From an uncultured Candidatus Saccharibacteria bacterium (GTDB lineage Bacteria > Patescibacteriota > Minisyncoccia > Phycocordibacterales > PALSA-1337), in assembly GCA_964441635.1 (NCBI GenBank), contig CAYTUZ010000002.1:1-33599 (forward strand): DNA of 33,599 bases, written 5' to 3'. The position numbers were made by a program, and so were the translations under genes. The notes beneath the pieces were generated by a model. It worked only from the letters and a program-made list of their open reading frames with translations. It made no database searches and was not told the origin of the DNA. Positions 3,562 through 19,795 of this stretch are shown in pieces; within the stretch, counting starts at the first letter, position 1, and each line of letters opens with the position of its first letter.

Positions 3562-3583
3562 CGTTCGCACACCCTATGTAAAC

Positions 3584-3628: not shown

Positions 3629-3645
3629 TCGAGTAAAATAAGCTC

Positions 3646-5601: not shown

Positions 5602-5610
5602 TATACAGAA

Positions 5611-6790: not shown

Positions 6791-6825
6791 GTGAATGGAC
6801 TAGAGAACTGTGTCACGCACCCTTT

Positions 6826-7248
6826 TCATTTGAGTGCTGATGAGACAGTGTAGAGATCATTGATGCCAAAGGGATTTCTGGGCGGATCCACGCCTTTGCG
6901 GTAGATCTTGTGACCGGAGCTGGGGTCCGAAAGATTGCCCAAGAACCAAACTATCTCACCAGAGTCGAGTTGCATTGGCCCGCTGTAATATTCCTCGCAT
7001 GCTCTGTTGTAGAAGGCGTCATAGAATTTTGTGTCACTCGCTAAGTCCCATCTGTCGGCCATGGCATTATAGGCGAGCAAGCCCAAGCTTTCTGCTTGCA
7101 GATAGTTGGCGGTGATTTTGATAGATCTGATCAAATAACGGTGGTTCCCTAGAAAGAGTTTTTTCCCTCTCAACAACCACAATTCTGCCCAGCAGCCGAC
7201 CAAATCCATTCCCTTGAGGTCTTCGAAAGTGATTGGTTTGTATTTCAT
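6826..7248 (-). CDS. Hypothetical protein, 140 aa
   Basis: Long ORF followed by a canonical terminator. Starts 15 nt downstream of the preceding minus-strand ORF. No motif I recognise. Confidence 0.55.
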   Translation of the reverse strand: MKYKPITFEDLKGMDLVGCWAELWLLRGKKLFLGNHRYLIRSIKITANYLQAESLGLLAYNAMADRWDLASDTKFYDAFYNRACEEYYSGPMQLDSGEIVWFLGNLSDPSSGHKIYRKGVDPPRNPFGINDLYTVSSALK

Positions 7249-7263
7249 AAATCCTTTCGTTGT

Positions 7264-7560
7264 TTATACTCCCCACCACGAAGGCATAGATCTTGCCTCA
7301 TTTTCCGCGAAGACTTGTATTGCCCTTTTTCGCAGTCGCGGAGTAATGTAAACCGTTCCAGCGAGAATTTGGAAGAGTTCGTGTTCTCGCCTGAAGTCGT
7401 CACTGTCCATTTCCGACACATTCGGTTTACCTCTTTTGCGATGAAGCGCGAGAAGCGCTTTTTGAGTCTTCTTGAGATGGCGAGTGCGTGCGGCATAGTC
7501 GACCAAACTCTGCGTGGTCGAATCCGTTCGGTGCCGAAGTCGAGTATTTAGTTTTTTCAT
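7264..7560 (-). CDS. Hypothetical basic protein, ~98 aa (MKKLNTRLRHR...)
   Basis: ORF 7264..7614 in the track; the internal ATG at 7560 is preferred. Arg/Lys-rich. Forms a two-gene minus-strand unit with 6826..7248. Confidence 0.45.
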   Translation of the reverse strand: MKKLNTRLRHRTDSTTQSLVDYAARTRHLKKTQKALLALHRKRGKPNVSEMDSDDFRREHELFQILAGTVYITPRLRKRAIQVFAENEARSMPSWWGV

Positions 7561-7621
7561 AACATCTGGAATAGATATTACAAGCATTGCGAGGGTTGTC
7601 AAATAGAATCGCAAGAATTTC

Positions 7622-7650
7622 TTGAATATCCTAGTATCAAGTTGTAGAAT
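7622..7650 (+). promoter_or_regulatory. Candidate promoter TTGAAT - 17 nt - TAGAAT
   Basis: The -10 ends 8 nt before the ATG at 7659. Lies in the divergent intergenic region between the 7560(-) and 7659(+) genes. Confidence 0.4.
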
Positions 7651-7658
7651 GCAGCTTT

Positions 7659-8204
7659 ATGGCCGATAAAAAGACAATAGACCAACGTGTTGCAGATTAC
7701 GATCAGATAAAGCATGAAGCTTCTGATCTTTACAACACCTTTGTCTCTGTTGATTGTGCAGCTCTTGGTCAAAAAGTCGATTTTACTTCAGAGGGATTCA
7801 ATCATCTTGTTTATTCTGCACCCAAGAAGATGAGAGATAAAAGAGCTCAAATACTTCGTTTTGACATGCTCTCAAAAGCAAAATTTATTCTCGAAACATC
7901 GACTACGTTTCAAGAATATGAGGAAGAAATTATCAACAAAAGAGTTAACCGAAATGGCCATTGGGTTCCGAAAAGTGTTTTAGTTTGTCGCTGGGGATTT
8001 GTGGCAATAATACAAAAGTTTCGCGTAAAAGTCGTAGTTACCAAAGAAAGCAATGGGGCTGTAAAATTTCTTAGTGTTGCACCGGCTTGGCTAACAAAAT
8101 GGTACAGGAATATCAAGATTATAGAGACATCTGTGGGAAAAGGTTTAAATAATTCTGATGATGAGGAGGTACTAAAAAACGCCACAATAAGTGACGCCTT
8201 TTAG
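7659..8204 (+). CDS. Hypothetical protein, 181 aa
   Basis: Clean ORF with a plausible promoter. The VDFTSEGFNHLVY segment is only faintly reminiscent of small phage-associated nuclease-like domains, so no function is assigned. Confidence 0.6.
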   Translation: MADKKTIDQRVADYDQIKHEASDLYNTFVSVDCAALGQKVDFTSEGFNHLVYSAPKKMRDKRAQILRFDMLSKAKFILETSTTFQEYEEEIINKRVNRNGHWVPKSVLVCRWGFVAIIQKFRVKVVVTKESNGAVKFLSVAPAWLTKWYRNIKIIETSVGKGLNNSDDEEVLKNATISDAF

Positions 8205-8335
8205 TGTGCCTGTCTCCGGCTTGGAAATAACCAGATAGGTCTGACGACCCGCAGACACACATATAATATACACAGGTATAAAGATTAAGTCAATGAATTT
8301 GTTTTCGAAAACAATCCATCATCAGGTGTTATTTT

Positions 8336-8363
8336 TTGCATTCAAATCCTTCAGGCGTATACT
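8336..8363 (+). promoter_or_regulatory. Candidate promoter TTGCAT - 16 nt - TATACT for rarA
   Basis: The -10 at 8358-8363 ends 6 nt before the ATG at 8370, and there is no SD. Confidence 0.45.
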
Positions 8364-8369
8364 ACCGCC

Positions 8370-9572
8370 ATGGAACCCCTCGCCTCTAAAATCCGCCCGC
8401 AGTCACTTGCCGAATTCGTCGGGCAAGAGCATTTGGTGGGCGAGGACAACCCCTCGACAGGTCTCGGGGCAGGACCTCTCCGTAAAGCCATAGAAGACAA
8501 GCACCTTTTCTCCTTCATTCTCTGGGGTCCGCCGGGAACTGGCAAGACTACGATTGCGAGAATTTATGGGAAGGCTGTGAATGCTCGCATATATGAATTG
8601 TCAGCGGTATCGGCTGGCAAGGATGATATCAGGAAGATCTTGGAAGACCCTGATACATTGCTGGATATACAGGCCGCCTCCGCCAAAGGCTACGGCGAGC
8701 CGAAGCCCAAGGTTTTATTCTTGGACGAAATTCATAGGTTCAACAAAGCGCAACAAGATTTTCTCTTGCCTTATGTTGAGAGTGGCAAGCTCACTCTTAT
8801 TGGCGCAACGACGGAGAATCCCAGCTTTGAAGTCATTCCTGCTCTGCTTTCACGCTGTAGGATATTTGTCTTGAATCCTTTGAGCGAAGACGAACTTAGG
8901 ACTATTGTGAAGCGAACCAAGGTGAAAGTACCCAAAGATGCGATTGACTGGCTGGTAGGATTGGCGAATGGCGATGCGCGCATAGCGATAACCGCTATTG
9001 AGAATTGCAAAAAGCTTTATGGCGGCATCAATCTGGAAAATCTCAAGAATACCTTCGAGCATGCATTTATCCGTTTCGACAAAAAAGGCGAGGAACACTA
9101 TGACACCATTTCGGCATTTATAAAAAGTATGCGTGCCGGTGATGCCGATGCTGCACTCTACTATTTGGCCAGAATGATTGCTGGCGGCGAAGATCCCAAA
9201 TTTATAGCCAGAAGAATGGTAGTGTTCGCTTCCGAAGATATCGGCTTGGCGCAGCCCACTGCACTGGTCGTCGCTAATGAAGTTTTTCGCGCGGTCGAAA
9301 CTATCGGCCTGCCAGAAGCGCAGATCAATTTGGCTCATGGTACTGCATATCTGGCACTGGCTGCAAAAGATCGCAGCGCATACGATGCCTATTTCGAAGC
9401 ATTGGAAGATGTGAGAAGTACGGGGAATTTGCCTGTACCACTCAAAATCAGGAATGCACCTACGAAGCTTATGAAAGAATTGGGCTACCATAAAGGTTAT
9501 CAAAAATATGATAAAGAGAGTTATTTGCCGGAGAAACTCAAGGGCAAGAGGTATTTGAAACGGAAGAAATAG
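8370..9572 (+). CDS. rarA: Replication-associated recombination protein A (MgsA/RarA, AAA+ ATPase)
   Basis: LASKIRPQSLAEFVGQEHL, Walker A GPPGTGKTT, Walker B LFLDEIHRFNK, TLIGATTENPSF, and C-terminal MgsA domain motifs (HYDTISAFIKSMRAGDADAALYYLARM, EDIGLA). Confidence 0.9.
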   Translation: MEPLASKIRPQSLAEFVGQEHLVGEDNPSTGLGAGPLRKAIEDKHLFSFILWGPPGTGKTTIARIYGKAVNARIYELSAVSAGKDDIRKILEDPDTLLDIQAASAKGYGEPKPKVLFLDEIHRFNKAQQDFLLPYVESGKLTLIGATTENPSFEVIPALLSRCRIFVLNPLSEDELRTIVKRTKVKVPKDAIDWLVGLANGDARIAITAIENCKKLYGGINLENLKNTFEHAFIRFDKKGEEHYDTISAFIKSMRAGDADAALYYLARMIAGGEDPKFIARRMVVFASEDIGLAQPTALVVANEVFRAVETIGLPEAQINLAHGTAYLALAAKDRSAYDAYFEALEDVRSTGNLPVPLKIRNAPTKLMKELGYHKGYQKYDKESYLPEKLKGKRYLKRKK

Positions 9573-9605
9573 GGTGTAAGATAATCATGGAAGGAGAATC
9601 CTCTT

Positions 9606-9890
9606 ATGCGCTTAAAGGTCCTGCTCGAACATATCGACTGTTGGCTCTGTGTTCACTTGAAGCCGTGGCGGTTGAGATTGTGGTGGCACTGCTTGTGGAT
9701 CCGCAGTGACGAATTCCACCCCTCCCTCGACCACCAGACTTCTATTGTTCATGCCATTAAGAAAAGCCACAATCTGAAATGGTTTGAAGAATGCAGTGCA
9801 GCCGAAGAATACGATAAAGACTTAAATAGACGTCGCTGCCTTGCTCATGAGCGGTCGCTGCGAGAATCAGATGCGATGTTGGCTCGCTAG
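9606..9890 (+). CDS. Doubtful hypothetical ORF (Trp/Cys/His-rich, 94 aa)
   Basis: Preceded by GGAAGGAG 9 nt upstream, the only strong SD in the window. However, the composition is unprotein-like and the N-terminal half coincides with a GC-rich imperfect hairpin at 9665-9737. Confidence 0.25.
   Translation: MRLKVLLEHIDCWLCVHLKPWRLRLWWHCLWIRSDEFHPSLDHQTSIVHAIKKSHNLKWFEECSAAEEYDKDLNRRRCLAHERSLRESDAMLAR
9665..9737. repeat. Imperfect GC-rich hairpin element
   Basis: GGTGG-CACTGC-(10 nt loop)-GCAGTG-ACGAATT-CCACC, extended by a G-rich left arm (GTGGCGGTTGAGATTG) against a C-rich right arm (CCTCCCTCGACCACCAG). Confidence 0.3.
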
Positions 9891-9997
9891 ATCCGTGTTT
9901 CCATGAAAGCGTGTCGTTTGCCGCGGCACGCTTATTTAATGAGAGCCACTCATTTTTTAGTTTGGAAATCCCTCATTTTCTGCTACACTTCATAGTT

Positions 9998-11023
9998 ATG
10001 AAGATACTGATAGCATCAGGCATTTACCCGCCCGACATAGGCGGTCCGGCGCAATACGCGCGCAATCTTTATGAGACCTGGAAAAAGGCCGGTTACGATG
10101 TGAAAGTTGCGGCATATAGGTGGGAGCGCGCTCTGCCACCGGGTTTTCGGCATATCCTTTACTTCTTGAAAATCATCCGCAAAGGCTGGAATGCTGACCT
10201 CATCTTGGTTCTCGACACTTGGTCTGCCGCTGTGCCAACCATGTACGCTTGTCGGCTGATGGGCAAGAAATATGTCTTGCGCACCGGCGGCGACTTCTTG
10301 TGGGAATCGTACGTCGAAAGAACTGGCGACATGGTCTTGTTCAAAGATTTTTACCAAGCTCGCACAAATCTATTAAATCGCAAAGAAAAACTCGTTTTCA
10401 AACTCGGCCGAAGAGTACTACGTCACGCCAAGGTTTTAATCTTCAGCACGGATTGGCAGAGAAAAATATTTGAGAAAGCCTATAAGCTCGATCCCAAACA
10501 AAGTGTCATTATCGAAAACTTTTGCGGAGCTCGAGCCGAAGCTATCGAACCAGAAAATCGCACATTTATTGGTGGTACGCGAATCCTAAAATGGAAAAAT
10601 ATCGATTTGCTCAAACATGCTTTTGATACAGCACAGATACAGGTAAAAGCAAAAGGTTTGCCGGAAATAGAACTTGATCTCGGAAAAGCTGTCTATGACA
10701 GTTTCTTTGAGAAAATTCATAATGCATATGCTGTCATCTTGGTTTCGCTAGGCGACATTAGTCCAAACATGATCTTTGACGCTATTCGCGCTGGCACGCC
10801 GTTCATAGTCACAAAAGAAACTGGTATTGCCGATAGGATCAAAGATTGCGCCATTTTTGTCGATCCACAGAATGAAAAAGAAATCGTCGAGAAGATTGTC
10901 TGGCTATCTGATCCGAAGAATCGCGCCACGCAAGCCGAAAAAGTCAGGAATTTCAAATTTACCCATACTTGGGAGGATATTGGGAAAGAGATTGTCGAAG
11001 TCTCGAAAAAGAAAAGCAAATAG
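9998..11023 (+). CDS. Glycosyltransferase, GT4-like (GT-B fold)
   Basis: MKILIASGIYPPDIGGPAQYARNL N-terminus is typical of the WbuB-like GT4 N-domain. The track start at 9911 adds an implausible leader; ATG 9998 is preferred. Confidence 0.75.
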   Translation: MKILIASGIYPPDIGGPAQYARNLYETWKKAGYDVKVAAYRWERALPPGFRHILYFLKIIRKGWNADLILVLDTWSAAVPTMYACRLMGKKYVLRTGGDFLWESYVERTGDMVLFKDFYQARTNLLNRKEKLVFKLGRRVLRHAKVLIFSTDWQRKIFEKAYKLDPKQSVIIENFCGARAEAIEPENRTFIGGTRILKWKNIDLLKHAFDTAQIQVKAKGLPEIELDLGKAVYDSFFEKIHNAYAVILVSLGDISPNMIFDAIRAGTPFIVTKETGIADRIKDCAIFVDPQNEKEIVEKIVWLSDPKNRATQAEKVRNFKFTHTWEDIGKEIVEVSKKKSK

Positions 11024-11024
11024 C

Positions 11025-12038
11025 ATGGCCAAGAATTTGCTCATGATATCTATAGATCGCAAAATCTTCGAAGCAGGAAGCAACGTGCGCGCGCGCCAGA
11101 TCGAATATGCCAAAAGTTGGGATGAGGTTCACATTATCGTTGCAACTGATAGAAGTTATAAAGAGGTACACATTGCGCCCAATATCTGGGTTTATCCTAC
11201 ACGGTCATTGTTCAAGGTACTGTATCCTTTTGATGCTATTCGCCTCGGCAAATTCATCGCCAAAAGAAAAAATATTCAGCAAATTACTTGCCAAGATCCA
11301 TTCCTCACTGCAATGGCTGGCGTGACTTTGAAAAAGGAATTAAAAATTCCATTAGAAATTCAAATTCACACTGACATTGGCAGTCCAAATTATACTTATA
11401 CGCTTCTAAATAAAGTCAGAAAATATCTGGCACTTTCATACCTGCCAAGAGCTGACCACATTCGAGTTGTATCTCAAAGGGTGAAGGATTATTTGATGAC
11501 TGTCATTCCCGCGAAGGCGGGAATCCAGGATTTCATTACCGTACGTCCTATTGCTGTTGATACCGAATGGATAGTGAATACACCTATTATGATTGATTTG
11601 CACCATAAATATCCGCAGTTTGAAAAAATCGTGCTCATGGCTTCACGGCTGGAAAAAGAGAAAAATATCGAGCTGGCAATAAATTCATGGCCAAAAATAC
11701 TGGAAAAAATTCCAAAAGCAGGGCTTATTATTGTCGGTGCAGGATCAGAGGAAGCATCGCTTCGTAAACAAATCGCGAGGTGCGACCTCGAGAAGTCAGT
11801 CATAATCGAACCTTGGGCTCCAAAACAAATCCTCGCTTCTTATTACAAAACCGCGGATGCATTCTTGAACACTTCATTATTCGAAGGTTACGGTATGGCC
11901 TTGGTAGAAGCCAAAGCAGCGGGATGTCTCGTCATTTCAACCGACGTAGGCATTGCCAATGAAGTTGGCGCGACGATTATTAATTTTGATGAGAGTGATG
12001 TGGCGGAGAAGATTATTAAAATACTAAAAAGTGTCTAA
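11025..12038 (+). CDS. Glycosyltransferase family 4
   Basis: C-terminal FEGYGMALVEAKAAGCLVISTDVGIANEV motif. ATG 11025 lies 1 nt after the upstream stop. The track start at 10827 overlaps the previous gene. Confidence 0.8.
   Translation: MAKNLLMISIDRKIFEAGSNVRARQIEYAKSWDEVHIIVATDRSYKEVHIAPNIWVYPTRSLFKVLYPFDAIRLGKFIAKRKNIQQITCQDPFLTAMAGVTLKKELKIPLEIQIHTDIGSPNYTYTLLNKVRKYLALSYLPRADHIRVVSQRVKDYLMTVIPAKAGIQDFITVRPIAVDTEWIVNTPIMIDLHHKYPQFEKIVLMASRLEKEKNIELAINSWPKILEKIPKAGLIIVGAGSEEASLRKQIARCDLEKSVIIEPWAPKQILASYYKTADAFLNTSLFEGYGMALVEAKAAGCLVISTDVGIANEVGATIINFDESDVAEKIIKILKSV
11505..11524. repeat. GC-rich hairpin ATTCCCGC-GAAG-GCGGGAAT inside the CDS (encodes VIPAKAGIQ)
   Basis: Perfect 8-bp stem with a 4-nt loop, read directly. 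The host frame stays open. Confidence 0.6.
11776..11790. repeat. Short palindrome CGAGGT-GCG-ACCTCG (possible member of the GAGGT/ACCTC palindrome family)
   Basis: Shares the CGAGGT...ACCTCG arms with 21511-21546 and 24476-24490. A stem this short could be chance on its own. Confidence 0.3.
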
Positions 12039-12055
12039 TTGCAGATGTCCGACAT

Positions 12056-12544
12056 ATGATTAACTGGACCAAAAACAAATATAAGGAATTGGATCAGAAA
12101 TACGCTACACACATGAAGGTTGTGCGTTATATGATTTCTGGTAGCACGGCGGCAGCTGTAGATTTGATTGTTCTATATATTCTCACGGGCGTCTTCGGAA
12201 TGTGGTATGTGATATCAACGCCAATCGCCTTCATCGTTGCTTTTGGCGTGAGTTTTTCGATGCAAAAATACTGGACTTTCAGGGACCATTCGACCGATGA
12301 CGTTGCCAAGCAGGGTACATTATATTTTGTTATTAGCGCGATAAATATGGCAATCAACTCCTTTCTAGTGTTCATTTTCACTGAATTTACACGAGCTCAC
12401 TTTAGTAATCTTCCAACTCTGGTCGAGAAACATGACTATCTTATTTCGCAGATTGTCGCGGCACTTTTGATTGCCATCGCAAGTTTCTTTGTTTATCAGA
12501 AGTTTGTCTTCAATCGTAAGCCGCAAATAGCACCAAAAGCATGA
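12056..12544 (+). CDS. GtrA-family membrane protein (polyprenyl-phosphate-sugar translocation family)
   Basis: VVRYMISGSTAAAVDLIVLYILTGVFGMWYVISTPIAFIVAFGVSFSMQKYWTFRD matches the GtrA-like signature. Four TM helices. Confidence 0.8.
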   Translation: MINWTKNKYKELDQKYATHMKVVRYMISGSTAAAVDLIVLYILTGVFGMWYVISTPIAFIVAFGVSFSMQKYWTFRDHSTDDVAKQGTLYFVISAINMAINSFLVFIFTEFTRAHFSNLPTLVEKHDYLISQIVAALLIAIASFFVYQKFVFNRKPQIAPKA

Positions 12545-13776
12545 AATTATTAGTTGTTACACAAGCAGTAGATGAGGACAATTCCGTATTGGCTTTTTTC
12601 CATGAATGGATCAAGGAATTTGCCAAGAATTGCGAACAGGTCACGGTTATTTGTCTCCAAAAAGGAAGGTATGAATTACCAAGCAATGTTAAAGTCGTGT
12701 CGCTTGGCAAGGGACGTGACTTTCTCGACCACGGAAAATTTCCTGCAGGAAATTTTCCTAGTCCTCGGAAATTTTCTGGTGAAAATTTCCTGCGTATGGT
12801 CTCGAAAATCACGTCCTTTGCCAAGCTCTGTTATGTAATCAATTTCTACAGATTTATTTTTCGTGAGCGAAAAAACTACGATGCGGTTTTTGTACACATG
12901 AATCCGATTTATGTGGTCCTAGGAGGCATCCTGTGGAAAAGCTGGGGAAAACCTGTGGGTATGTGGTATACGCATCGGAATGTTGACTTGAAGTTGAAGG
13001 TTGCCGAAAAACTGTCAAACGCCGTATTTACGGCCTCAAAAGAGAGTTTTTCACTACCAAGTAAGAAGGTAGTTATTGTGGGTCATGGCATTGATGTCGC
13101 TCGATTTGCAAATGTTAAAAGAGCCAAAGAATTGGGCATAGAACCGATCCGAATAATTTCTGTTGGCCGAATTACAGCTATAAAGAATTGCGATGTTTTG
13201 GTTGAGGCAGCTAGAATTCTGAAGGATAAGTGGCAGAAACAATTTGAAGTTTTCCTGATCGGTGCAGCTGTCACAACCGAAGACCAGTCGTATGAGCATA
13301 AGATCAAGAATCTGATTGACGCTTATGATTTGGAGAATATTGTGAAGTTGACTGGTAATATTTCGGCCGAAGAAATGCCTTTGCATTATTCGATGGCGGA
13401 CGCTTCGGTAAATTTGACCCCGACTGGCGGAGTTGATAAAGCGGTTTTGGAATCGATGGCTGCGGGTGTGCCGGTATTTTCGTCAAATAAGACTTTTACA
13501 GATTATTTTGGTTCGTACGCTGAAGATCTTATTTTCCAAGAAAAAAATGCGGTAGATTTGGCAGACAAAATCATGAAATTATTCTCGGGCAATCAGCTGG
13601 CAGAGCTTAGCGAATCTGAAAAGAAAACCGCGCGCGAACGAGCGGACGTTTCAGCTTTAATCTTGATGGTCGTGACGCAGATGTCCCTACTTCGCTCCTC
13701 GCAGACTCCTTCTTCGCCAAGGCTTCGAAGGACAAGTCGGAGCTACGCAGGGCAAGCTGACGTTGTTAAAAAGTAA
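12541..13776 (+). CDS. Glycosyltransferase family 4 carrying an in-frame palindromic insert and a repeat-derived C-terminal tail
   Basis: MKLLVVTQAVDEDNSVLAFFHEWIKEFA N-terminus and GGVDKAVLESMAAGVPVFSS C-domain. ATGA overlap with the GtrA gene. Confidence 0.8.
   Translation: MKLLVVTQAVDEDNSVLAFFHEWIKEFAKNCEQVTVICLQKGRYELPSNVKVVSLGKGRDFLDHGKFPAGNFPSPRKFSGENFLRMVSKITSFAKLCYVINFYRFIFRERKNYDAVFVHMNPIYVVLGGILWKSWGKPVGMWYTHRNVDLKLKVAEKLSNAVFTASKESFSLPSKKVVIVGHGIDVARFANVKRAKELGIEPIRIISVGRITAIKNCDVLVEAARILKDKWQKQFEVFLIGAAVTTEDQSYEHKIKNLIDAYDLENIVKLTGNISAEEMPLHYSMADASVNLTPTGGVDKAVLESMAAGVPVFSSNKTFTDYFGSYAEDLIFQEKNAVDLADKIMKLFSGNQLAELSESEKKTARERADVSALILMVVTQMSLLRSSQTPSSPRLRRTSRSYAGQADVVKK
12702..12826. 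repeat. Compound palindromic element, copy 1 (MITE/RPE-like)
   Basis: Inverted outer arms plus two internal perfect hairpins at 12733-12758 and 12767-12790. The core is repeated at 19298-19396. Confidence 0.85.
13685..13752. repeat. Imperfect GC-rich hairpin forming the last ~25 codons of the GT4 gene
   Basis: Paired segments CCCT/AGGG, GCTCC/GGAGC, TCCTTC/GAAGGA and GCC/GGC, separated by near-symmetric internal loops. Encodes LLRSSQTPSSPRLRRTSRSYAGQA. Confidence 0.45.
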
Positions 13777-13777
13777 G

Positions 13778-14926
13778 ATGAAATTATCTCATACAAAGAT
13801 TTGTTTTTTTGGTTGTGATTTCCCACCAACCAGCGGAGGTATTGCGACATATAGCTATGAATGGATTTTAACAACCGCGGAAAATCTGGAAGTTGCTTCG
13901 GTTCGCGCTGTCATCTTTGGTAACAAAAACCCTAGGCGAGAGCAGATTGGCAAACTGGGTCTGATCACATTCAAGTCACGAGGCTTTGTTGTTACCGGCA
14001 TTTTGACGCTCATATACATTTTGAAAAATTTTAATTCTGACCTTTTCCATTCTCTGAATCTTTTTCCGGTCGGTTTTTGGGTCGTTTTTTGGTCAAAAAT
14101 TCTAAAGAGGAAAAGTGCTGTAACTTTTTATGGCACCGATGCTTGCTCATCGCAGGCGAGCATACTTACTTTAAAACTAAAAAAATGGACGATAGAGAAT
14201 GCTTCTCGCGCTTTTACAATTAGCGAATTTACAAAAAGAGAGACCTTGCAAATACTCAAAATTCAGAGGGAAATCGAAGTTGTTTATGCTTTAGTTCCAG
14301 AGAAAACGATAAAAGAACAGCAAAAAAATTCACATTTATTAGCAAATCATTCAGACTCAGAGAGAATCGATGAACGTATTCATGATGAAGATTTTATCGT
14401 TTTGAGCGTTTGCAGAATGGTGAAGAGGAAAGGCCTTGATTTACTATTAAAAGCGATTTCATTACTTGGTGATGACAAAATCAAGGCGGTTTTGGTTGGC
14501 GATGGTCCAGAAAGAAAAGTGCTTGAAGATATGGCAAGCGAGCTTAAAATTCAAGACAGGGTAATTTTCGTTGGTAAAGTAAATAGTCTGGAACCTTATT
14601 ACAAAAGAGCGAATGTCGCTGTACTGCTTTCCAATTATTTGAGAGCTGAAGGAGATTTTGAAGGTTTGGGTTTGGTTTTGATCGAAGCACAATATTACGG
14701 CGTGCCGGTTATCGGTTCGGAGAGTGGCGGCATTCCCGAAGCATTTGAAAATGGCAGAACCGGCCTGCTTGTTCCGGAAAGTAATAGCGAAGCGATCCGC
14801 GACGCAATTCTCGAAATATATAATAATAAGGATCTTCGAAACAAAATGAGCCAAGAGTCGAAGAAGTTTATTTATGAGAAGTTTGATCCCAAAATGATTA
14901 TTGATAATTATATCAAAAGCATTTAA
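13778..14926 (+). CDS. Glycosyltransferase family 4
   Basis: GLGLVLIEAQYYGVPVIGSESGGIPEAFENGRTGLLV signature. ATG 13778 is 1 nt after the upstream stop. Confidence 0.85.
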   Translation: MKLSHTKICFFGCDFPPTSGGIATYSYEWILTTAENLEVASVRAVIFGNKNPRREQIGKLGLITFKSRGFVVTGILTLIYILKNFNSDLFHSLNLFPVGFWVVFWSKILKRKSAVTFYGTDACSSQASILTLKLKKWTIENASRAFTISEFTKRETLQILKIQREIEVVYALVPEKTIKEQQKNSHLLANHSDSERIDERIHDEDFIVLSVCRMVKRKGLDLLLKAISLLGDDKIKAVLVGDGPERKVLEDMASELKIQDRVIFVGKVNSLEPYYKRANVAVLLSNYLRAEGDFEGLGLVLIEAQYYGVPVIGSESGGIPEAFENGRTGLLVPESNSEAIRDAILEIYNNKDLRNKMSQESKKFIYEKFDPKMIIDNYIKSI

Positions 14927-14955
14927 GGACAATTTAGGATTATTTACGAATTCTC

Positions 14956-15963
14956 ATGAAAATAGCATTTATACCTCCAATTAACAAAAGCGATTATCTG
15001 GCCAATACGGTTATTGATGGCATTTTGTGGCAAAAAAAGGAAGGTTCAGATTTTGAATTCAAGATTCCGGATTATTTGTATCCTTGTCCGTATGATTTGA
15101 AACTTTATAAATTGGCAGAAAATGAATTTGCAGACTTCGCGCAATCAGCAGATTTGGTCGTTCTCGCTTGGGGCAAAAACGCGACCAACTATGATTTGGC
15201 AGGAAAAATCAATAAGTGGAACAAAACAATTTTCATCGATGGCAGTGAACTCGGCAAAAATAATCGTTTTGACGCCAATATTGCAAATGCCGTAAAAGAT
15301 TTAAGCTATAAAGGTATTGGCGCGATCGATCAGGAAATGCTTTCGAAATGCTCACTTTATTTTCGCCGTGAACAGCCTTACATTCAAGGTATTTTGCCAC
15401 TGCCTTTTGGCATTGAATCGAGATATGTTGCACATTTTAATTCGAGAGTAAAAAAAGATATAGATTTTGCTTGCGTGTTTGGCCAAGAAGACTATCCGAT
15501 CTTGCGAAAAGAAGCGCGGGAATATTTGGAACTATTTTGCAAGAAGAATGGCTTTTCCTGCTTCACCAAGCGAACCAAGGGATTTAACTTTGATGATAAC
15601 AATAAATTGGCAGGACGTGATCAGTTCTACGATGTTTTGGCACGCTCCAAGGTTGGTATTTCCATCGGTGGTGGCGGCTTCGACACTGCACGATTCTGGG
15701 AAACACTTGGCAACAATTGTATTTTGCTAACGGAAAAGATCGGCATTTATGAAGCTCCTAGTAAAGCATTGGATTATAAGAGAATTTGGCAGTTCAAGGA
15801 TATCGAGGAATTCAAGGTACAGCTTGCCAAACTCGCTTCTTATCTCCAAAACGAATACAATCAAGAAGCGATGAAAGAGGAATATGAAAAGATTTTGGCG
15901 GAACATTCCACCAAAGCGCGGGTACATACGATCTTGGATGAAGTGAAAAAAAGGGAATTGTGA
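14956..15963 (+). CDS. Putative glycosyltransferase (CgeB/exostosin-like C-terminal motif), otherwise hypothetical
   Basis: GISIGGGGFDTARFWETLGNNCILLTE resembles the S-R-(F/L)-x-E-x-L-x-x-G motif of exostosin/CgeB-type enzymes. No other recognisable motifs. Confidence 0.45.
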   Translation: MKIAFIPPINKSDYLANTVIDGILWQKKEGSDFEFKIPDYLYPCPYDLKLYKLAENEFADFAQSADLVVLAWGKNATNYDLAGKINKWNKTIFIDGSELGKNNRFDANIANAVKDLSYKGIGAIDQEMLSKCSLYFRREQPYIQGILPLPFGIESRYVAHFNSRVKKDIDFACVFGQEDYPILRKEAREYLELFCKKNGFSCFTKRTKGFNFDDNNKLAGRDQFYDVLARSKVGISIGGGGFDTARFWETLGNNCILLTEKIGIYEAPSKALDYKRIWQFKDIEEFKVQLAKLASYLQNEYNQEAMKEEYEKILAEHSTKARVHTILDEVKKREL

Positions 15964-16000
15964 ATTGACCTAATTACCTAATTTCTAATTGACCTAAAAA

Positions 16001-16969
16001 ATGAACAAGTTCCTGTCCGTTCAGAATAAAACAAAAGTAAATTGCATTATCTGTGGAAATGTTGCGAATTTTTTGATGGAAAAAGACGGCTATTTTATCT
16101 ATGAATGTCCGAAGTGCCGTTTGTCATTTGTTCATCCTCAACCCGCGGTGTCATTTCTAGAAGAAGAAGTTTATTCCGAAAAATCTGGTTATCAAGGAAA
16201 TAAACTAAAGGATCTTTCGAGAGTCGCGCCGACCAAAAAGCAAGCAAAAGTCTTGAATTATTTGAGAAGCCAAAACAAAGGCAAATTCTTGGACGTGGGT
16301 TGTTCCAGTGGCGAGTTTATGTATTTTGCAAAAAAGCTTGGCTTTGAAGTAGTTGGCGTGGAAATAAATCCGCGCACAGCTGCTATTGCCAAAGCGAATC
16401 GCTTGAATGTAATTCTTGGCACATTGGAACAAGCGCGTTTTCCAGATCATTCATTCGACTACGTCCATATGGGCGATTTGATTGAACATGTTACGGATCC
16501 ACGAGCTCTGATCAAAGAGACACATAGGATTTTGAAACCAAATGGTAGCCTGATAATTGTCACTCCTAATATGGATTGTTTTTGGGCAAAAGCGACATTC
16601 TTCTTATTCCGACTTTTCAAACTCCCTTGGAGTTCGGCAACACCTCCACATCACCTATTTCAATTTTCTATAAGTAATTTGAGGACTCTTTTGGAACAAG
16701 AAGGTTTTAGTTTTGGAAAAGTTTGGTTTACCGGCACACCAAGCTTGAAATACGAATTGGGTTCGCTTCACCTCCTCAAAAAGTGGAAAAATCAACACAG
16801 TCTTCCCAATTTATTCTGCATGATTTTTGGTTTTGGTTTGTACTCAATCGTATTTGGAATTAATCGGATCGTCGAATTGTTTCCAGTTAAAAGATTTAGT
16901 ATGGCGGTGGTGTTTGTGTTTTCCTCCTCCGAAGCCGAGGATGTCTCTCGCGCCGTAGAAAATGCTTAA
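16001..16969 (+). CDS. Class I SAM-dependent methyltransferase with an N-terminal Cys4 zinc ribbon
   Basis: CIICGN...CPKCRLSF ribbon. SAM motif I FLDVGCSSGEF. Motifs DYVHMGDLIEHV and LKPNGSLIIVTPN. The last ~22 codons lie in the left arm of the 16904-17185 inverted repeat. Confidence 0.8.
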   Translation: MNKFLSVQNKTKVNCIICGNVANFLMEKDGYFIYECPKCRLSFVHPQPAVSFLEEEVYSEKSGYQGNKLKDLSRVAPTKKQAKVLNYLRSQNKGKFLDVGCSSGEFMYFAKKLGFEVVGVEINPRTAAIAKANRLNVILGTLEQARFPDHSFDYVHMGDLIEHVTDPRALIKETHRILKPNGSLIIVTPNMDCFWAKATFFLFRLFKLPWSSATPPHHLFQFSISNLRTLLEQEGFSFGKVWFTGTPSLKYELGSLHLLKKWKNQHSLPNLFCMIFGFGLYSIVFGINRIVELFPVKRFSMAVVFVFSSSEAEDVSRAVENA

Positions 16970-17185
16970 CAAAATGCGAGTCTCGCTAGGAATTGTTGAG
17001 ATCGCGGCACTTTTTTATTTCATTGAAAAAATATTAAAGAAGTGCTTTGCAACATTCCGAGATGACAGGGATTTTTTCAATGAAATAAAAAAGTGCCGCG
17101 ATCTCAACAATTCCCGAGCATTTTGTTTAGCATATTTCCGGCGCGAGTTACGCAGACGAGGAAGACGAGACACAAACACCACCGC
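16904..17185. mobile_element. 282-nt inverted-repeat element (MITE-like)
   Basis: Identical 16-nt termini: GCGGTGGTGTTTGTGT at 16904-16919 and its reverse complement at 17170-17185. 44-bp perfect inner arms at 16989-17032 and 17071-17114 around a 38-nt loop. The middle parts of the arms are diverged but alignable. Confidence 0.6.
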
Positions 17186-17202
17186 TGTGCAATAATACTC
17201 GT

Positions 17203-18255
17203 ATGTTAAAAGTCTTCATCGGCCAACCCATTCCCAATTTGCCGATAGCTGACGTTATTCGGCCCAATTTTGGCGCGGTTGGACTGGATCGTTGGACGGA
17301 GCGTCATGTGCAGTTGAATACGCCGGTTCTTGAATTGGTAAAAACTCCAGAGGAAGCTGATTTCCTATTAATTACGCACAATTACAATGCCGTGTGTGGC
17401 AATGCGGAATATTTGCGCTCTTTCAAAACTCTTTCAAGGAAGTTAAATAAAAAAGTTATAGTTTTCTTTCCGGGCGATTCCAGTCAAGAAGTACCCATTG
17501 AAAATGCTATAGTCTTCCGGAATTCCCAGTATCGTTCCACTTTGAAAAAGAATGAGATTATTCTTCCCGGCTTTGTGGAAGATCTGGGTGCGAATCTTGA
17601 ATTGAAACCAAGAATGAAATCCAATGACAAAGCAACAGTCGGTTTTTGTGGCTGGGCAGACTTTCATTCAACAGCAGACTATCTCAAATTTTGGGCCAAA
17701 TCCTTGCCAACCACTTTGGCTTCATTATTCAATCGGAAGGTTTTGATTAAGCAAAAGGGCCTGTGGTGGCGCCGGAAAGTGATAAAAAACCTCTCGAATT
17801 CAAAGAAAATCAATACCAACTTTATTATTCGCAAAAGTTATTCTGGTAACGAAAAAACTATTGAACTCGATCCTAGAATAGCGAGACAAGAATACATTGA
17901 CAACATTCTTGGATGTGATTTCACACTCTGCATAAAAGGCGATGGTAATTTTTCCACCAGATTTTTTGAGACCTTGTCGCTTGGTAGGATTCCACTTCTC
18001 GTCGACACAGAATGTGTTTTGCCACTGGAGGAAGTCATCGATTATTCACAGATCATTTTAAGAGTGAATTGGAAAGATCTAAGTAAACTCGATTCCATAG
18101 TCGCGGATTTCTACGCCAAAGTGACTCCTGACCAATTCTCGGAAATGCAAAAGAAAGCGAGGGAAACTTTTGAAAAATATTTGAGGCTGGATGCTTATTT
18201 CAAAACTATCAGTAAAAAAGAATATTATGAAAAAGGCAATGCAATGGCTCATTAA
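17203..18255 (+). CDS. Exostosin-family (GT47-like) glycosyltransferase
   Basis: KGDGNFSTRFFETLSLGRIPLLVDTECVLPLEEVIDY matches the exostosin C-terminal signature. Confidence 0.65.
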   Translation: MLKVFIGQPIPNLPIADVIRPNFGAVGLDRWTERHVQLNTPVLELVKTPEEADFLLITHNYNAVCGNAEYLRSFKTLSRKLNKKVIVFFPGDSSQEVPIENAIVFRNSQYRSTLKKNEIILPGFVEDLGANLELKPRMKSNDKATVGFCGWADFHSTADYLKFWAKSLPTTLASLFNRKVLIKQKGLWWRRKVIKNLSNSKKINTNFIIRKSYSGNEKTIELDPRIARQEYIDNILGCDFTLCIKGDGNFSTRFFETLSLGRIPLLVDTECVLPLEEVIDYSQIILRVNWKDLSKLDSIVADFYAKVTPDQFSEMQKKARETFEKYLRLDAYFKTISKKEYYEKGNAMAH

Positions 18256-19795
18256 AAACAAAAAAGAGCTGATCGTGACGTCGCTTTTTTGCGCCGCCTT
18301 ATTTTTCAGTACCTACAAACTCAGTGAAAGTCCGCCAACATGGCTCGATGAAGGCATGATCGTGCAAACATCAAAGACTCTGGTTGAAGAAGGAGTCTAT
18401 TCCGTAAAAGTTGCGCCTGACACGTATATTTCTCCGGGTTTCATTTCCACAAGTTACCCTGTGACATTTCCAATCGCATTATCTTTCAAACTCTTTGGCG
18501 TTGGTTTGCTTCAAGCCAGAAGTGTAATGGTTATTTATATTTTAGCATTTCTTTTATCGATTTATTTTCTAGCAAAAAGACTTTTCAAGAATGAATGGCT
18601 AATGATCGCCGGTTTGGCGCTATTGGTCAGTTTTCCGCCACTTTATGGCAATGGCAAAAACGTGCTTGGCGAAGTCCCCGGGCTTTTCTTCTTGACGGTG
18701 TTTTTGATATTCATCGACCGGATTTGGAAAGGCGACCGGCGCATTTCACAATTCATTCTTGCCGGCTTGACACTGGGCCTTTGTATTGCCACCAAGCCGA
18801 TTTTTATTTTACTGCTTCCTGTTGTGGCAATGTGGCTCTTATACGTCTGGTTAAAAAAGCCTGAAGTTTTTGGTCGTGGCATAATCAAAAACAGCTTATA
18901 TTTTATTGTTTGCGCATTGTTACCGCTCGTCGCATGGATAATGATCCAGTTTCGTGGTGATTCGTTTGTCGCAACTCTTTCTTATTACGCGAATCCGCAC
19001 AGTGTAAATTTGGCGACATCTTTGCTCTCGAATATAAAAGCTTTTTTGACGGCGCCGGAATCGTTGTATTTCTTTGCTCTTTATTTGGTTTGGTTGACGG
19101 CGGTCACATTCAGAGTTTGGTCCAAAAAGAATATCGAAGTCGCGGAATTGGTCGCTTTTGGTTTTTCCACCCTAGTTTTACTGGCATATTTTAGAAATCC
19201 GGCTTATTATCGCTATTTTTTCTTGGCGGAGGTTTATTGCTTGTTATTCTTTGTGCAAACACTTAACTTTATTATTGGGACGCGCCCGAAGGCGGCCGAT
19301 GTGACTTCCTCGACCACGGAAAATTTCCTGCAGGAAATTTTCCTACGGAATTTTCTGGTGAAAATTTCCTGCGTATGGTCTCGGAAATCACATCGGCCGC
19401 TTTCGGGCGCTGGCATCTCAATATTTGTTATTGTGTTTGCACTTATTATTTTCCAATCCTACCAACTCCTTTTTCATTCTTGGGTTTCGCAATATTATGG
19501 CAGTACCAAAACTCGCGATTGTGTCGCGGCTATCGGAAAAATTCCGCAAGCAAAATCCATTTTCTTTTATCAAGATCCGGAACTGGTTATTTTCCGCGCT
19601 GGCGGCAATTATTACCAATATATGGATAGCATCGAAACCGATCAGAGCCGCACTGAAAAGAAGCGCTTGATCAAACAAGGGGTTCCGGATATTGTGGCGG
19701 TTTCGAGTGAAATAATGCCGCAAATACAGGATATTTTGGAGAAATACGTCTCATCGAGTTCTTGTGACCGATATCAGATATTGAATAAGAAATAG
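18227..19795 (+). CDS. GT-C fold membrane glycosyltransferase (ArnT/PMT-like, GT39/GT83-type)
   Basis: More than 10 TM helices. First-loop acidic motif PPTWLDEGM, typical of polyprenyl-phosphate-sugar-dependent GT-C enzymes. The start is ambiguous (18191, 18227 or 18239) and overlaps the upstream gene. Confidence 0.7.
   Translation: MKKAMQWLIKNKKELIVTSLFCAALFFSTYKLSESPPTWLDEGMIVQTSKTLVEEGVYSVKVAPDTYISPGFISTSYPVTFPIALSFKLFGVGLLQARSVMVIYILAFLLSIYFLAKRLFKNEWLMIAGLALLVSFPPLYGNGKNVLGEVPGLFFLTVFLIFIDRIWKGDRRISQFILAGLTLGLCIATKPIFILLLPVVAMWLLYVWLKKPEVFGRGIIKNSLYFIVCALLPLVAWIMIQFRGDSFVATLSYYANPHSVNLATSLLSNIKAFLTAPESLYFFALYLVWLTAVTFRVWSKKNIEVAELVAFGFSTLVLLAYFRNPAYYRYFFLAEVYCLLFFVQTLNFIIGTRPKAADVTSSTTENFLQEIFLRNFLVKISCVWSRKSHRPLSGAGISIFVIVFALIIFQSYQLLFHSWVSQYYGSTKTRDCVAAIGKIPQAKSIFFYQDPELVIFRAGGNYYQYMDSIETDQSRTEKKRLIKQGVPDIVAVSSEIMPQIQDILEKYVSSSSCDRYQILNKK
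19282..19410. repeat. Compound palindromic element, copy 2
   Basis: Same core as 12716-12814 with 2 substitutions and 5-nt plus 1-nt indels. The outer arms are GCGCCCGAAGGCGGCCGATGTGA / TCACATCGGCCGCTTTCGGGCGC. Confidence 0.85.

What the first reader, a model, noticed from the sequence alone, without database searches (positions are those of the whole stretch)
19282..19410. Second copy of the compound palindrome, in a different gene and reading frame, with compensatory outer-stem changes
- The copy lies in a loop between TM helices of the GT-C membrane glycosyltransferase.
- It is translated in a frame shifted by one relative to copy 1 (ADVTSSTTENFLQEIFLRNFLVKISCVWSRKSHRPLSGAG). That peptide is what the alternative + frame of copy 1 would encode.
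- The outer arms differ in sequence from copy 1 but are still self-complementary: GCGCCCGAAGGCGGCCGATGTGA / TCACATCGGCCGCTTTCGGGCGC, with 1 mismatch.
- The ACGTGA/TCACGT pair of copy 1 is ATGTGA/TCACAT here, which is a paired double substitution.

Maintenance of pairing with changed sequence argues that the hairpin (as RNA, or as DNA cruciform or single strand) is what is generated or selected, not the peptide.
Basis: seen in the sequence. Interest (0 to 1): 0.72.

Follow-up and report, generated by a model that had tools for sequence, protein, structure and literature searches.

The report
Structured repeat nested in gene hairpin
A ~100-base Y-shaped folding element of an undescribed Patescibacteria family sits in frame inside a membrane glycosyltransferase gene, at the tip of a small hairpin the gene already had, so the "outer arms" are host sequence and not part of the element.

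Summary
19282-19410 is a 129-nt compound palindrome (RNA fold z = -11.7) and a second copy of the one at 12702-12826. It is read in a different frame of another gene.

The interpretation needs correcting. Only the inner 97-103 nt (closing stem, two hairpins) is shared. The outermost 16+16 nt (11+11 in copy 1) are host gene sequence. In both genes the closest element-free ortholog already carries the same arms as a short hairpin. The core therefore sits at the apex of pre-existing host hairpins.

The two cores differ by one 6-nt in-frame deletion and four substitutions. All four form two compensatory pairs (chance about 1.6e-4).

Five compound copies and five tRNA-linked relatives share the architecture, with covarying stems and a conserved CGAG/CGAG tandem G.A motif. 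All ten fold better on one strand, which in this window is antisense to the host genes.

There is no Rfam, phage or plasmid match, no target-site duplication, no transposase and a low copy number.

Best reading: a new structured single-strand element, probably RNA-derived, duplicated into hairpin loops and tolerated as an in-frame loop insertion. It resembles Rickettsia palindromic elements without being one. The mechanism is inferred, not shown.

The parts
19282..19297 (+). Left outer arm of copy 2 (GCGCCCGAAGGCGGCC). It is host GT-C coding sequence (T-RPKAA), not part of the repeated element.
   Evidence: It is not shared with copy 1. The first 9 nt are homologous to the L015 ortholog arm GCCCCCGAA, which is already an inverted repeat there.
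19298..19394 (-). Core of copy 2 (97 nt): closing stem P1, hairpin A and hairpin B. The sense strand is inferred to be the window minus strand. Relative to copy 1 it lacks 6 nt, including the conserved CGAGGA junction.
   Evidence: The covariance model scores it 91.1 bits on the minus strand and 30.6 on the plus strand. The minus strand folds at -46.8 and the plus strand at -43.6 kcal/mol.
19298..19316 (-). P1, 3' half on the minus strand (GATGTGACTTCCTCGACCA on the plus strand). It contains one CTCG (= CGAG on minus) of the tandem G.A motif and both left-hand partners of the two compensatory substitutions.
19318..19343 (.). Hairpin A, GGAAAATTTCC-TGCA-GGAAATTTTCC, a perfect 26-nt palindrome identical in both copies.
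   Evidence: (I4).
19347..19369 (-). Hairpin B, GGAATTTTC-TGGT-GAAAATTTCC. It has a 1-nt deletion in one arm relative to copy 1. The loop is ACCA on the minus strand (AGCA in relatives).
19376..19394 (-). P1, 5' half on the minus strand (TGGTCTCGGAAATCACATC on the plus strand).
19395..19410 (+). Right outer arm of copy 2 (GGCCGCTTTCGGGCGC). It is host coding sequence (RP-LSGA).
   Evidence: The last 9 nt are homologous to the L015 arm TTCGGGGGC. The C/G difference compensates the G/C difference in the left arm.
12702..12826 (-). Copy 1 (125 nt), the more intact copy. Host arms are 12702-12712 and 12816-12826. The core is 12713-12815 (103 nt), with hairpin A at 12733-12758 and hairpin B at 12767-12790.
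   Evidence: It scores 107.8 bits on the minus strand. An independent metagenome contig, L087, is 100% identical. The L016 ortholog has the same arms around a 13-nt loop.
18191..19795 (+). Host gene of copy 2: GT-C / PMT_2 membrane glycosyltransferase, carrying a 34-codon in-frame insertion in the loop before the last transmembrane segment.
12541..13776 (+). Host gene of copy 1: GT4 glycosyltransferase, carrying a 30-codon in-frame insertion after the conserved SLGK motif.

Best explanation
**What it is**
- Copy 2 is a slightly decayed duplicate of copy 1.
- Both are members of an undescribed Patescibacteria family of ~100-nt three-way-junction elements. Each has a closing stem P1 with a tandem G.A motif and two hairpins with conserved loops and junctions.
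- The conserved, better-folding strand is the window minus strand, which is antisense to the glycosyltransferase genes.
- The family also includes single-copy, tRNA-linked, RNA-like members in Saccharibacteria and Uhrbacteria. The compound copies are therefore most likely dispersed copies of a small structured RNA gene, or of its single-stranded DNA form.

**How it got there (inferred)**
- Each gene already had a short hairpin. Such hairpins look like a product of inverted-duplication or template-switch mutation, which appears common in these genomes.
- The core was placed exactly at the apex. It replaced the loop, so its closing stem stacks directly on the host stem.
- Only frame-preserving outcomes survived (+90 and +102 nt). 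The host now translates the element as a 30- or 34-residue loop insertion.

**Why pairing persists**
- In the core, pairing is kept by constraint on the single-strand fold.
- In the outer arms, and possibly the core too, it is kept by arm-to-arm templated correction during replication.

**Shown**: repeat, boundaries, host origin of the arms, covariation, strand asymmetry.
**Inferred**: RNA nature, apex-insertion mechanism, absence of function for the host gene.
For: **Boundaries and host hairpins**
- The shared core is 103 nt in copy 1 and 97 nt in copy 2.
- The element-free orthologs L015 and L016 keep the arms as 9-bp and 11-bp hairpins.
- The L016 loop encodes EKTKR, matching the family consensus SLGKEK. 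The empty state therefore looks ancestral.
- A more distant ortholog, L095, has no hairpin at this site.
- The arms are 21/22 identical between the window and L016, against about 74% background identity (P about 0.01).

**Chance of landing in hairpin loops**
- My rough estimate from the hairpin list is that under about 1% of the window lies in loops of >=9-bp hairpins.
- Two independent hits would then be about 1e-4 by chance.

**Core evolution**
- The four substitutions form two compensated pairs (P = 1.6e-4).
- There is also a 6-nt in-frame deletion that removes the conserved CGAGGA junction.

**Family**
- L004, L011 and L012 share the hairpin A, junction and hairpin B order. Hairpin B and P2 covary: 7/25 pairs change on both sides and 0-1 of 500 shuffles reach the observed values.
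- In the tRNA-linked relatives, 12/33 pairs are compensatory and G.U pairs are conserved. Four lie directly downstream of a tRNA on the same strand: L001, L003, L009 and L010.

**Strand asymmetry**
- CGAG opposite CGAG gives tandem G.A pairs only on one strand, in W1, W2, L011 and L012.
- All 10 members fold 2-12 kcal/mol better on that strand.
- The model scores 108 and 91 bits on the minus strand against 39 and 31 on the plus strand.

**Host genes**
- Both stay open and alignable to their ends.
- The insertion lies between hydrophobic segments.
Against: - There are no expression data. No sigma-70-like promoter was found on the minus strand near either copy.
- The outer-arm G/T mismatches are wobbles on the plus strand, not the minus strand.
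- The sample is small: 5 compound and 5 tRNA-linked copies. All were found through an exact 18-20-mer of hairpin A, so hairpin A conservation is by construction.
- The very long perfect outer stems of L004 (19 bp) and L011 (25 bp) look more like DNA palindromes than RNA helices.
- Tandem G.A and G.T pairs are also stable in single-stranded DNA, so RNA and ssDNA cannot be separated here.
- The order of events rests on one ortholog per site and on treating copy 2 as a young copy.
- Nothing identifies an enzyme.
Confidence: 0.5

Rival explanations
1. A purely DNA-level selfish palindromic element (MITE / RPE-like). It would be mobilised in trans by a transposase that works on single-stranded hairpin DNA, for example an HUH/Y1 enzyme, and would insert into single-stranded hairpin loops. 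There would be no RNA function. The tRNA-linked relatives would simply be older insertions.
For: - There is a terminal inverted repeat GAYGTGA/TCACRTC, and 4 of 6 frames are open.
- Insertion is in frame in two unrelated genes.
- Outer stems of intergenic copies are long and perfect.
- Hairpin A is a perfect DNA palindrome.
- Strand-specific features are also typical of top-strand-specific ssDNA transposition.
- Other compound palindromes with a GCGAAGC DNA mini-hairpin, in flip and flop arrangements, occur in orthologous GT4 genes.
Against: - There is no consistent target-site duplication. Flanks are AAGG/CTTT at copy 1 and GGCC/GGCC at copy 2.
- Only two copies occur in 33.6 kb, and no more were found with filters off.
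- At most one exact hairpin A occurs per other genome.
- No transposase is present in the window.
- No protein in 1.84 billion representatives carries the peptide.
- The tRNA-linked relatives have short, covarying stems containing G.U pairs, as an RNA gene would.
Confidence: 0.27
2. No dedicated mobility or function. Replication template switching in these genomes creates and extends palindromes. Copy 2 arose from copy 1, 6.6 kb away in the same orientation, by an ectopic template switch or gene conversion at a hairpin-stalled fork. All pairing, including the compensatory changes, is a by-product of arm-to-arm templated copying.
For: - Six of eight lineage-specific in-frame insertions examined in these two gene families are hairpins. 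One arm is made of conserved host codons.
- Host hairpins persist in element-free orthologs with a G-C to C-G double change that has no wobble intermediate.
- The two copies are close together and co-oriented.
- Template switching is documented to create perfect stems and multi-base compensatory changes (PMC8794818).
- A small GAGGT-NNN-ACCTC hairpin is strongly enriched inside ORFs.
Against: - It does not explain homologous cores in different phyla-level lineages (L004, L011, L012 and the tRNA-linked set) with conserved non-palindromic loops and junctions.
- It does not explain the conserved CGAG/CGAG non-Watson-Crick motif, which templated copying would erase.
- It does not explain the consistent strand asymmetry.
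Confidence: 0.15
3. The whole 129-nt palindrome including the outermost arms is the element, and its outer stem covaries between copies under selection for a hairpin.
For: Both copies are fully self-complementary to their outer ends, with different outer sequences.
Against: The outer arms align to host codons of element-free orthologs and are already inverted repeats there. They are not homologous between the two copies, so they cannot covary.
Confidence: 0.05
4. An assembly or chimera artefact at palindromic sequence.
For: Palindromes can be mis-assembled. Several unrelated metagenome contigs end in palindromes centred on the search word.
Against: - Both copies are in frame, with conserved ortholog sequence on both sides.
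- Copy 1 recurs 100% identical on a separate contig.
- Diverged homologues occur in independent MAGs.
Confidence: 0.03

Closest known systems
Rickettsia palindromic elements (RPE)
   Same: Both are ~100-150-bp palindromic repeats inserted in frame into unrelated protein-coding genes. Several frames are open, and the element is translated as an extra peptide that the protein tolerates (PMC10969869).
   Different: - The host is a Patescibacterium, not Rickettsia.
- Copy number is low: 2 in the window and at most 1 exact hairpin A per other genome.
- The element is a three-way junction, not a simple palindrome.
- It is nested at the apex of a pre-existing host hairpin.
- It is related to tRNA-linked, RNA-like single-copy elements.
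- Sequence similarity to the RPE families was not tested here.
Bacterial MITEs that occur inside genes or fold in RNA (ERIC/IRU, Correia/NEMIS, BOX, RUP)
   Same: Both are small and non-coding, have terminal inverted repeats, fold as strong hairpins, and are occasionally intragenic and in frame.
   Different: There is no target-site duplication, no AT-rich target, no high copy number and no related insertion sequence in view. The conserved part is internal and strand-asymmetric rather than terminal.
Template-switch-generated hairpins (Monttinen and Loytynoja 2022, PMC8794818)
   Same: An inverted copy of adjacent sequence creates a perfect stem in one event, and multi-base compensatory changes arise. 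This fits the host arms and the other hairpin insertions found in orthologs.
   Different: It is a mutation process, not an element. It does not explain a shared 100-nt core with conserved non-palindromic motifs across lineages.
Elements that target hairpins (IS1397/ISKpn1 in REP loops, group IIC introns at terminator or attC stem-loops, integron attC recombination); named from my own knowledge
   Same: The target is chosen by DNA secondary structure.
   Different: Those elements are autonomous or enzyme-defined and recognise specific repeat families. Here the two host hairpins are unrelated in sequence, lie inside coding regions, and no enzyme is known. attC sites conserve the outermost bases and vary in the centre, which is the opposite of this element.
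REP / BIME / REPIN with RAYT transposases
   Same: Both have short hairpins preceded by a conserved tetranucleotide. Here that is GCAG before hairpin B and YTAG before hairpin A, compared with GTAG or CGTC tags (PMC3733652).
   Different: REPs are extragenic, 20-40 nt and high copy, and REPINs conserve the ends. None of these hold here.
T-shaped terminal hairpins of parvoviruses (AAV ITR); analogy from my own knowledge
   Same: The architecture is the same: a long outer stem enclosing two small hairpins. A flip/flop arrangement is seen in the unrelated L098/L099 insertions.
   Different: There is no evidence of rolling-hairpin replication. The element is chromosomal and intragenic.

Membership tests
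MITE | Terminal inverted repeats | tested here: met
   GAYGTGA / TCACRTC is perfect for 7 bp. It extends to a 19-bp stem with a CGAG/CGAG internal mismatch.
MITE | Target-site duplication (direct repeat) flanking the element | tested here: not met
   Copy 1 flanks are AAGG and CTTT, which are inverted, not direct. Copy 2 flanks are GGCC and GGCC, a word that is itself palindromic. There is no consistent direct repeat.
MITE | Many copies per genome | tested here: inconclusive
   There are two copies in 33.6 kb and none further with filters off. One exact hairpin A occurs per genome in the 185,579-species collection. Whole genomes of the window organism were not available.
MITE | Related autonomous element or transposase | tested here: inconclusive
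   No transposase domain was found among the window ORFs scanned. The rest of the genome could not be searched.
Rickettsia palindromic elements | Palindromic ~100-150-bp repeat inserted in frame in ORFs | tested here: met
   The copies are 125 and 129 nt. They add +30 and +34 codons, and the orthologs align on both sides.
Rickettsia palindromic elements | Membership of one of the RPE sequence families of Rickettsia | not tested
   No RPE sequences were compared. The host is a Patescibacterium, judged by the source names of the closest homologues. No similar DNA was found in the phage or plasmid collections.
Rickettsia palindromic elements | Recurrent insertion of the same peptide in many proteins | tested here: not met
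   Zero hits at E <= 0.001 for the copy 1 peptide among 1.84 billion representatives. The limits are one frame only and 50% clustering.
REP / BIME | Extragenic, 20-40 nt, high copy | tested here: not met
   The copies are intragenic, have a ~100-nt core, and number two.
Any Rfam 15 family (including ribozymes and riboswitches) | Score at or above the gathering threshold | tested here: not met
   There were no hits in the window. Only sub-threshold generic hairpin (miRNA) matches appeared at E up to 10. Nothing was found over the tRNA-linked relative.
Structured non-coding RNA (generic) | Covarying helices with conserved loops and junctions | tested here: met
   In the compound copies, 7/25 pairs change on both sides, 96% of cells are paired, and 0/500 shuffles reach the observed score. 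In the tRNA-linked set, 12/33 pairs are compensatory. The samples are small.
Structured non-coding RNA (generic) | Strand-specific signals (G.U and G.A pairs only on the sense strand) | tested here: met
   All 10 members are more stable on the CGAGG-sense strand. The model scores 108 and 91 bits against 39 and 31 bits. This is equally compatible with single-stranded DNA.
Structured non-coding RNA (generic) | Transcription of the sense strand | not testable with these tools
   No RNA-seq data were available. The consensus promoter scan found nothing on the minus strand.

The most novel reading that the evidence does not exclude
A new kind of structure-targeting mobile element. A ~100-nt three-way-junction RNA or ssDNA, derived from a conserved tRNA-linked small RNA of Patescibacteria, integrates at the apex of any sufficiently stable hairpin. 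It would do so by joining its own closing stem to the host stem (stem-end joining, with loop replacement and no target duplication). This would seed in-frame peptide insertions in surface-glycosylation genes. In this reading it is part of a wider process in which most in-frame insertions in these proteins are hairpins.
Probability: 0.2. Interest if true: 0.85.

Novelty: new variant of a known kind. Interest (0 to 1): 0.64.

Why it matters
- In-frame palindromic repeats in genes are textbook only for Rickettsia. Finding the same phenomenon in the Candidate Phyla Radiation would show it is a recurrent way for small-genome bacteria to gain protein loops.
- Here the element has a three-way-junction core related to an apparent small RNA, and it sits on pre-existing gene hairpins.
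- The nesting gives a concrete, testable case of secondary structure rather than sequence choosing an insertion site.
- It is also a warning for covariation analysis. Outer "compensatory" stems can be host sequence kept palindromic by replication-templated copying, not by selection.
- The tRNA-linked relatives are a candidate new small RNA family of Saccharibacteria and Uhrbacteria.

Tried and rejected
**Searches that found nothing relevant**
- Rfam at gathering and permissive thresholds on the window, copy 1 and the related loci: nothing relevant.
- tRNA/tmRNA scan of the window: none.
- Phage and plasmid BLAST: no match.
- Viral contig scan with the hairpin A 20-mer: no match.

**Peptide searches**
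- A search with the four open frames concatenated returned nothing. It is unreliable, because local phmmer scores the window's own proteins at E 3e-12 and 5e-6.
- An exhaustive search of 1.84 billion representatives with the copy 1 peptide gave 0 hits.

**Metagenome scan**
- It returned 77 loci. Most are chance occurrences of the 18-mer inside ordinary genes.
- Several simple long palindromes are centred on the word (L038, L061, L065, and L014). I rejected these as relatives. The search word is itself a palindrome, so it is expected at the centre of some unrelated hairpins.
- L005 and L063 score weakly with the model and were left undecided.

**Models and links considered**
- Centre deletion (orthologs lost the core but kept the arms). 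I disfavoured it because the L016 loop encodes the family-consensus EK residues. Also, copy 2 has lost a conserved motif yet differs from copy 1 by only four paired substitutions. It is not excluded.
- Splicing of the element out of the mRNA. I judged this unlikely because both net insertions are multiples of three and the frames in use are open.
- A link between the element and the window segment absent from L016 (6767-9536). No transposase is there.
- L098 and L099 compound palindromes as family members. They are not matched by the model.
- The C-terminal extension of the GT4 ORF as a further copy. It is not significantly structured.
Full report
**1.

- The repeat finder reports arms 19282-19316 and 19376-19410, 35 nt and 89% complementary. 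It also reports two direct blocks shared with 12713-12815 at 96% and 91% identity.
- As RNA, the 143-nt stretch around copy 2 folds at -87.4 kcal/mol. Shuffles give -42.8 +/- 3.8, so z = -11.7. Copy 1 gives z = -9.3.
- The 26-nt hairpin GGAAAATTTCCTGCAGGAAATTTTCC occurs exactly twice in the window, with none expected.
- Copy 2 lies in ORF 18191-19795, which has a PMT_2/GT-C domain. It sits between hydrophobic segments 343-363 and about 408-425.
- Its peptide is the +1-frame reading of copy 1, while copy 1 (ORF 12541-13776, GT4) is read in frame 0.
- Four of the six frames of the element are open.

**2. Where the element ends**

Only the inner part is repeated: 12713-12815 (103 nt) and 19298-19394 (97 nt). 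Both begin GAYGTGA and end TCACRTC. The outermost arms, 11+11 nt in copy 1 and 16+16 nt in copy 2, are unrelated between the copies.

I compared each host gene with its closest element-free ortholog.

GT-C gene:
- The ortholog is P0002 at 69% identity.
- It aligns on both sides of a 34-residue gap.
- Its DNA at the site is GCCCCCGAA-cgcctcggt-TTCGGGGGC, which is already a 9-bp hairpin.

GT4 gene:
- The ortholog is P0122 at 65% identity. It lies on contig L016, which is syntenic with window 661-17657 at about 69-83% nucleotide identity.
- Its DNA at the site is GCTTGGCAAGG-aaaagactaaacg-CCTTGCCAAGC, an 11-bp hairpin with the very arms that flank copy 1.

The outer arms are therefore host sequence (SLGK.../...AKL and RPKAA/...LSGA), and they are palindromic without the element. 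The core replaces the loop, and its closing stem continues the host stem with no unpaired base. The net changes are +90 and +102 nt, both multiples of three.

**3. Order of events**

Evidence that the hairpin came first:
- The L016 loop encodes EKTKR. The family consensus after SLGK is EK, so the empty hairpin looks ancestral.
- A more distant ortholog, L095, has no hairpin at the site.
- The arms are 21/22 identical between the window and L016, against about 74% background identity (P about 0.01).

Evidence that copy 2 is a young copy:
- It has lost the CGAGGA junction that every other family member keeps.
- Apart from that 6-nt deletion, it differs from copy 1 by only four substitutions.

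I therefore favour hairpin first and core later. The alternative, that the orthologs lost the centre of an older palindrome, is not excluded.

By my rough estimate from the hairpin list, under about 1% of the window lies in loops of hairpins of 9 bp or more. Two independent landings would then be about 1e-4 by chance.

**4. Substitution pattern**

The four substitutions between the cores are C/T with G/A, and T/C with A/G. They form two Watson-Crick-preserving pairs in the closing stem. Four random transitions do this with P = 1.6e-4.

In the host arms, the window and L015 differ by G-C against C-G at one pair. That double transversion has no wobble intermediate. It changes a residue on one side (R/P) and is silent on the other.

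**5. A family**

Scans:
- One scan of 185,579 species genomes with the central 20-mer gave 14 loci, mostly Patescibacteria.
- One metagenome scan gave 77 loci. These were mostly chance hits inside ordinary genes. It did recover L074 (= L004), L077 (= L011), L078, and L087. L087 is 100% identical to the window around copy 1.

Compound copies:
- L004, L011 and L012 are all intergenic.
- They share the order: stem, CCNCAG, hairpin B (AGCA loop), CGAGGAYTRG, hairpin A, GCG, stem.
- The stems of hairpin B and P2 differ between them but still pair.
- On the five compound copies, 96% of cells pair and 7 of 25 pairs change on both sides. Between 0 and 1 of 500 shuffles reach these values, and slid registers collapse.

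tRNA-linked relatives:
- There are five further loci: L001, L003, L009, L010 and L078, from Saccharibacteria and Uhrbacteria MAGs plus one metagenome contig.
- Each carries a shorter relative with a 7-8-bp closing stem.
- Four of them lie 50-130 nt downstream of a tRNA on the same strand. The tRNAs are Ser-GCT twice, Gln and Ile.
- Twelve of 33 pairs are compensatory, and two G.U pairs are conserved.

None of these is in Rfam. A covariance model of the compound copies finds no further copy in the window, even with filters off, and none in L015 or L016.

**6. Strand**

- In W1, W2, L011 and L012, both arms of the closing stem carry CGAG in the same 5'-3' sense.
- On one strand this gives C-G, G.A, A.G, G-C, a tandem sheared G.A motif. 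On the other strand it gives pyrimidine mismatches.
- All ten members fold 2-12 kcal/mol better on that strand.
- The model scores 108 and 91 bits on that strand against 39 and 31 on the other.
- In the window, this strand is the minus strand, antisense to both glycosyltransferase genes.
- What is conserved is therefore a single-stranded fold, not a duplex site and not the peptide.
- Whether that single strand is RNA or DNA cannot be decided here. The tRNA-linked set looks like an RNA gene. The long perfect outer stems of L004 and L011 look like DNA palindromes. No promoter-like site was found on the minus strand.

**7. Context: hairpins are the usual in-frame insertion here**

I fetched DNA for other lineage-specific insertions in the same two protein families.
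- In the same GT-C loop, P0073 (+16 aa) and P0075 (+12 aa) carry unrelated hairpins. One arm is made of conserved host codons.
- In GT4, P0231 and P0232 carry a homologous compound palindrome: an outer stem plus two inner hairpins, one of them the GCGAAGC mini-hairpin. The inner part is in opposite order in the two.
- Two insertions are not hairpins. L094 is a tandem repeat and L100 has no structure.
- In total, six of eight insertions are palindromic.
- A small hairpin, GAGGT-NNN-ACCTC, occurs six times in the window and three to four times in L016. It lies inside ORFs in all frames, against about 0.2 expected by my estimate.
- Replication template switching is documented to create perfect stems and multi-base compensatory changes in one step (PMC8794818). 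It is the simplest source of the host hairpins and of their G-C/C-G change.

**8. Comparison with known kinds**

- The closest analogy is the Rickettsia palindromic elements, which are ~150-bp repeats inserted in frame in many genes (PMC10969869). This element works like one in that it is an in-frame, translated, tolerated insertion.
- It differs from RPEs in several ways:
  - The host is a different phylum.
  - It is low copy.
  - It has a three-way junction.
  - It is nested in host hairpins.
  - The same peptide does not recur elsewhere.
- Sequence similarity to RPE families was not tested.
- As a MITE, it has terminal inverted repeats. It lacks a target-site duplication and has no visible transposase or high copy number.
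- REP/BIME, attC sites and hairpin-targeting insertion sequences or introns each share one trait only.
- No similar DNA occurs in the phage, plasmid or viral collections.

**9. Verdict**

- The finding is real and more interesting than a simple repeat, but its central inference is reassigned.
- The changed outer stem is host DNA that was already a hairpin.
- The evidence for a conserved fold comes from the inner stem (two compensatory pairs) and from the family-level covariation and strand asymmetry.
- Best explanation, with confidence about 0.5: a new structured single-strand element, probably RNA-derived, copied into the apex of pre-existing gene hairpins and carried as an in-frame loop insertion.
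- Main rival: a DNA-only MITE/RPE-like element.
- Limits:
  - There are only ten family members, all found through one exact word.
  - There is only one ortholog per empty site.
  - There are no expression data.
  - No enzyme has been identified.

Noticed in passing
window 16964-17133: An intergenic palindrome with 44-nt arms that are 100% complementary around a 38-nt loop. A further imperfect outer pair (GCTTAACAAAATGC / GCATTTTGTTTAGC) overlaps the stop codon of ORF 16001-16969. The whole structure is absent from the syntenic contig L016.
   Followed up: partly
window 30908-31001: Another large intergenic hairpin with 35-nt arms that are 86% complementary. RNA fold z is -8.9 on the plus strand and -10.2 on the minus strand. 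No Rfam match.
   Followed up: partly
window 11777, 21129, 21516, 21529, 24477, 33403; L016 8881, 8894, 12442: A family of small hairpins, (C/A)GAGGT-NNN-ACCTC(G/T). Most lie inside ORFs, in all three reading frames (the context of 33403 was not checked), and they replace non-homologous residues of the orthologs. There are six in the window against about 0.2 expected by my estimate. Two occurrences are back-to-back double units forming 28-38-nt perfect palindromes.
   Followed up: partly
L001 ~2960-3060, L003 ~3268-3370, L009 ~4240-4340, L010 ~3340-3440, L078 ~4665-4770: Candidate new small RNA of Saccharibacteria and Uhrbacteria, a ~100-nt three-way junction. Twelve of 33 pairs are compensatory and G.U pairs are conserved. 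In L001, L003, L009 and L010 it lies just downstream of, and co-oriented with, a tRNA of varying identity. No Rfam hit. It shares hairpin A, the AGCA-loop hairpin and the CCGCAG/CGAGG junctions with the window element.
   Followed up: partly
L096 ~1570-1620; L097 ~1447-1490: Two other GT-C orthologs carry unrelated hairpin insertions (+16 and +12 residues) in the same inter-helix loop as copy 2. One arm is formed by conserved host codons.
   Followed up: yes
L098 ~427-475; L099 ~427-476: Two GT4 orthologs share a compound palindrome inserted in frame about 13 residues upstream of the copy 1 site. It has an outer stem with compensatory changes plus two inner hairpins, one being the GCGAAGC mini-hairpin. 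The inner part is in opposite order in the two genes (flip/flop). The window-element model does not match them.
   Followed up: partly
window 6767-9536: A segment of about 2.8 kb, containing an MgsA-type AAA+ ATPase and three ORFs without Pfam matches, is present in the window but absent from the otherwise syntenic L016. No transposase was detected.
   Followed up: partly
window 13687-13776: The GT4 ORF has a 29-residue C-terminal extension (LLRSSQTPSSPRLRRTSRSYAGQADVVKK) that all aligned orthologs lack. It contains CCTCGCAG but is not significantly structured, with z -0.5 and -2.3.
   Followed up: partly
tool behaviour: The word-indexed protein search with concatenated element peptides returned no hit. 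It missed even the window's own proteins, which local phmmer scores at E 3e-12 and 5e-6. That negative result should not be used.
   Followed up: yes
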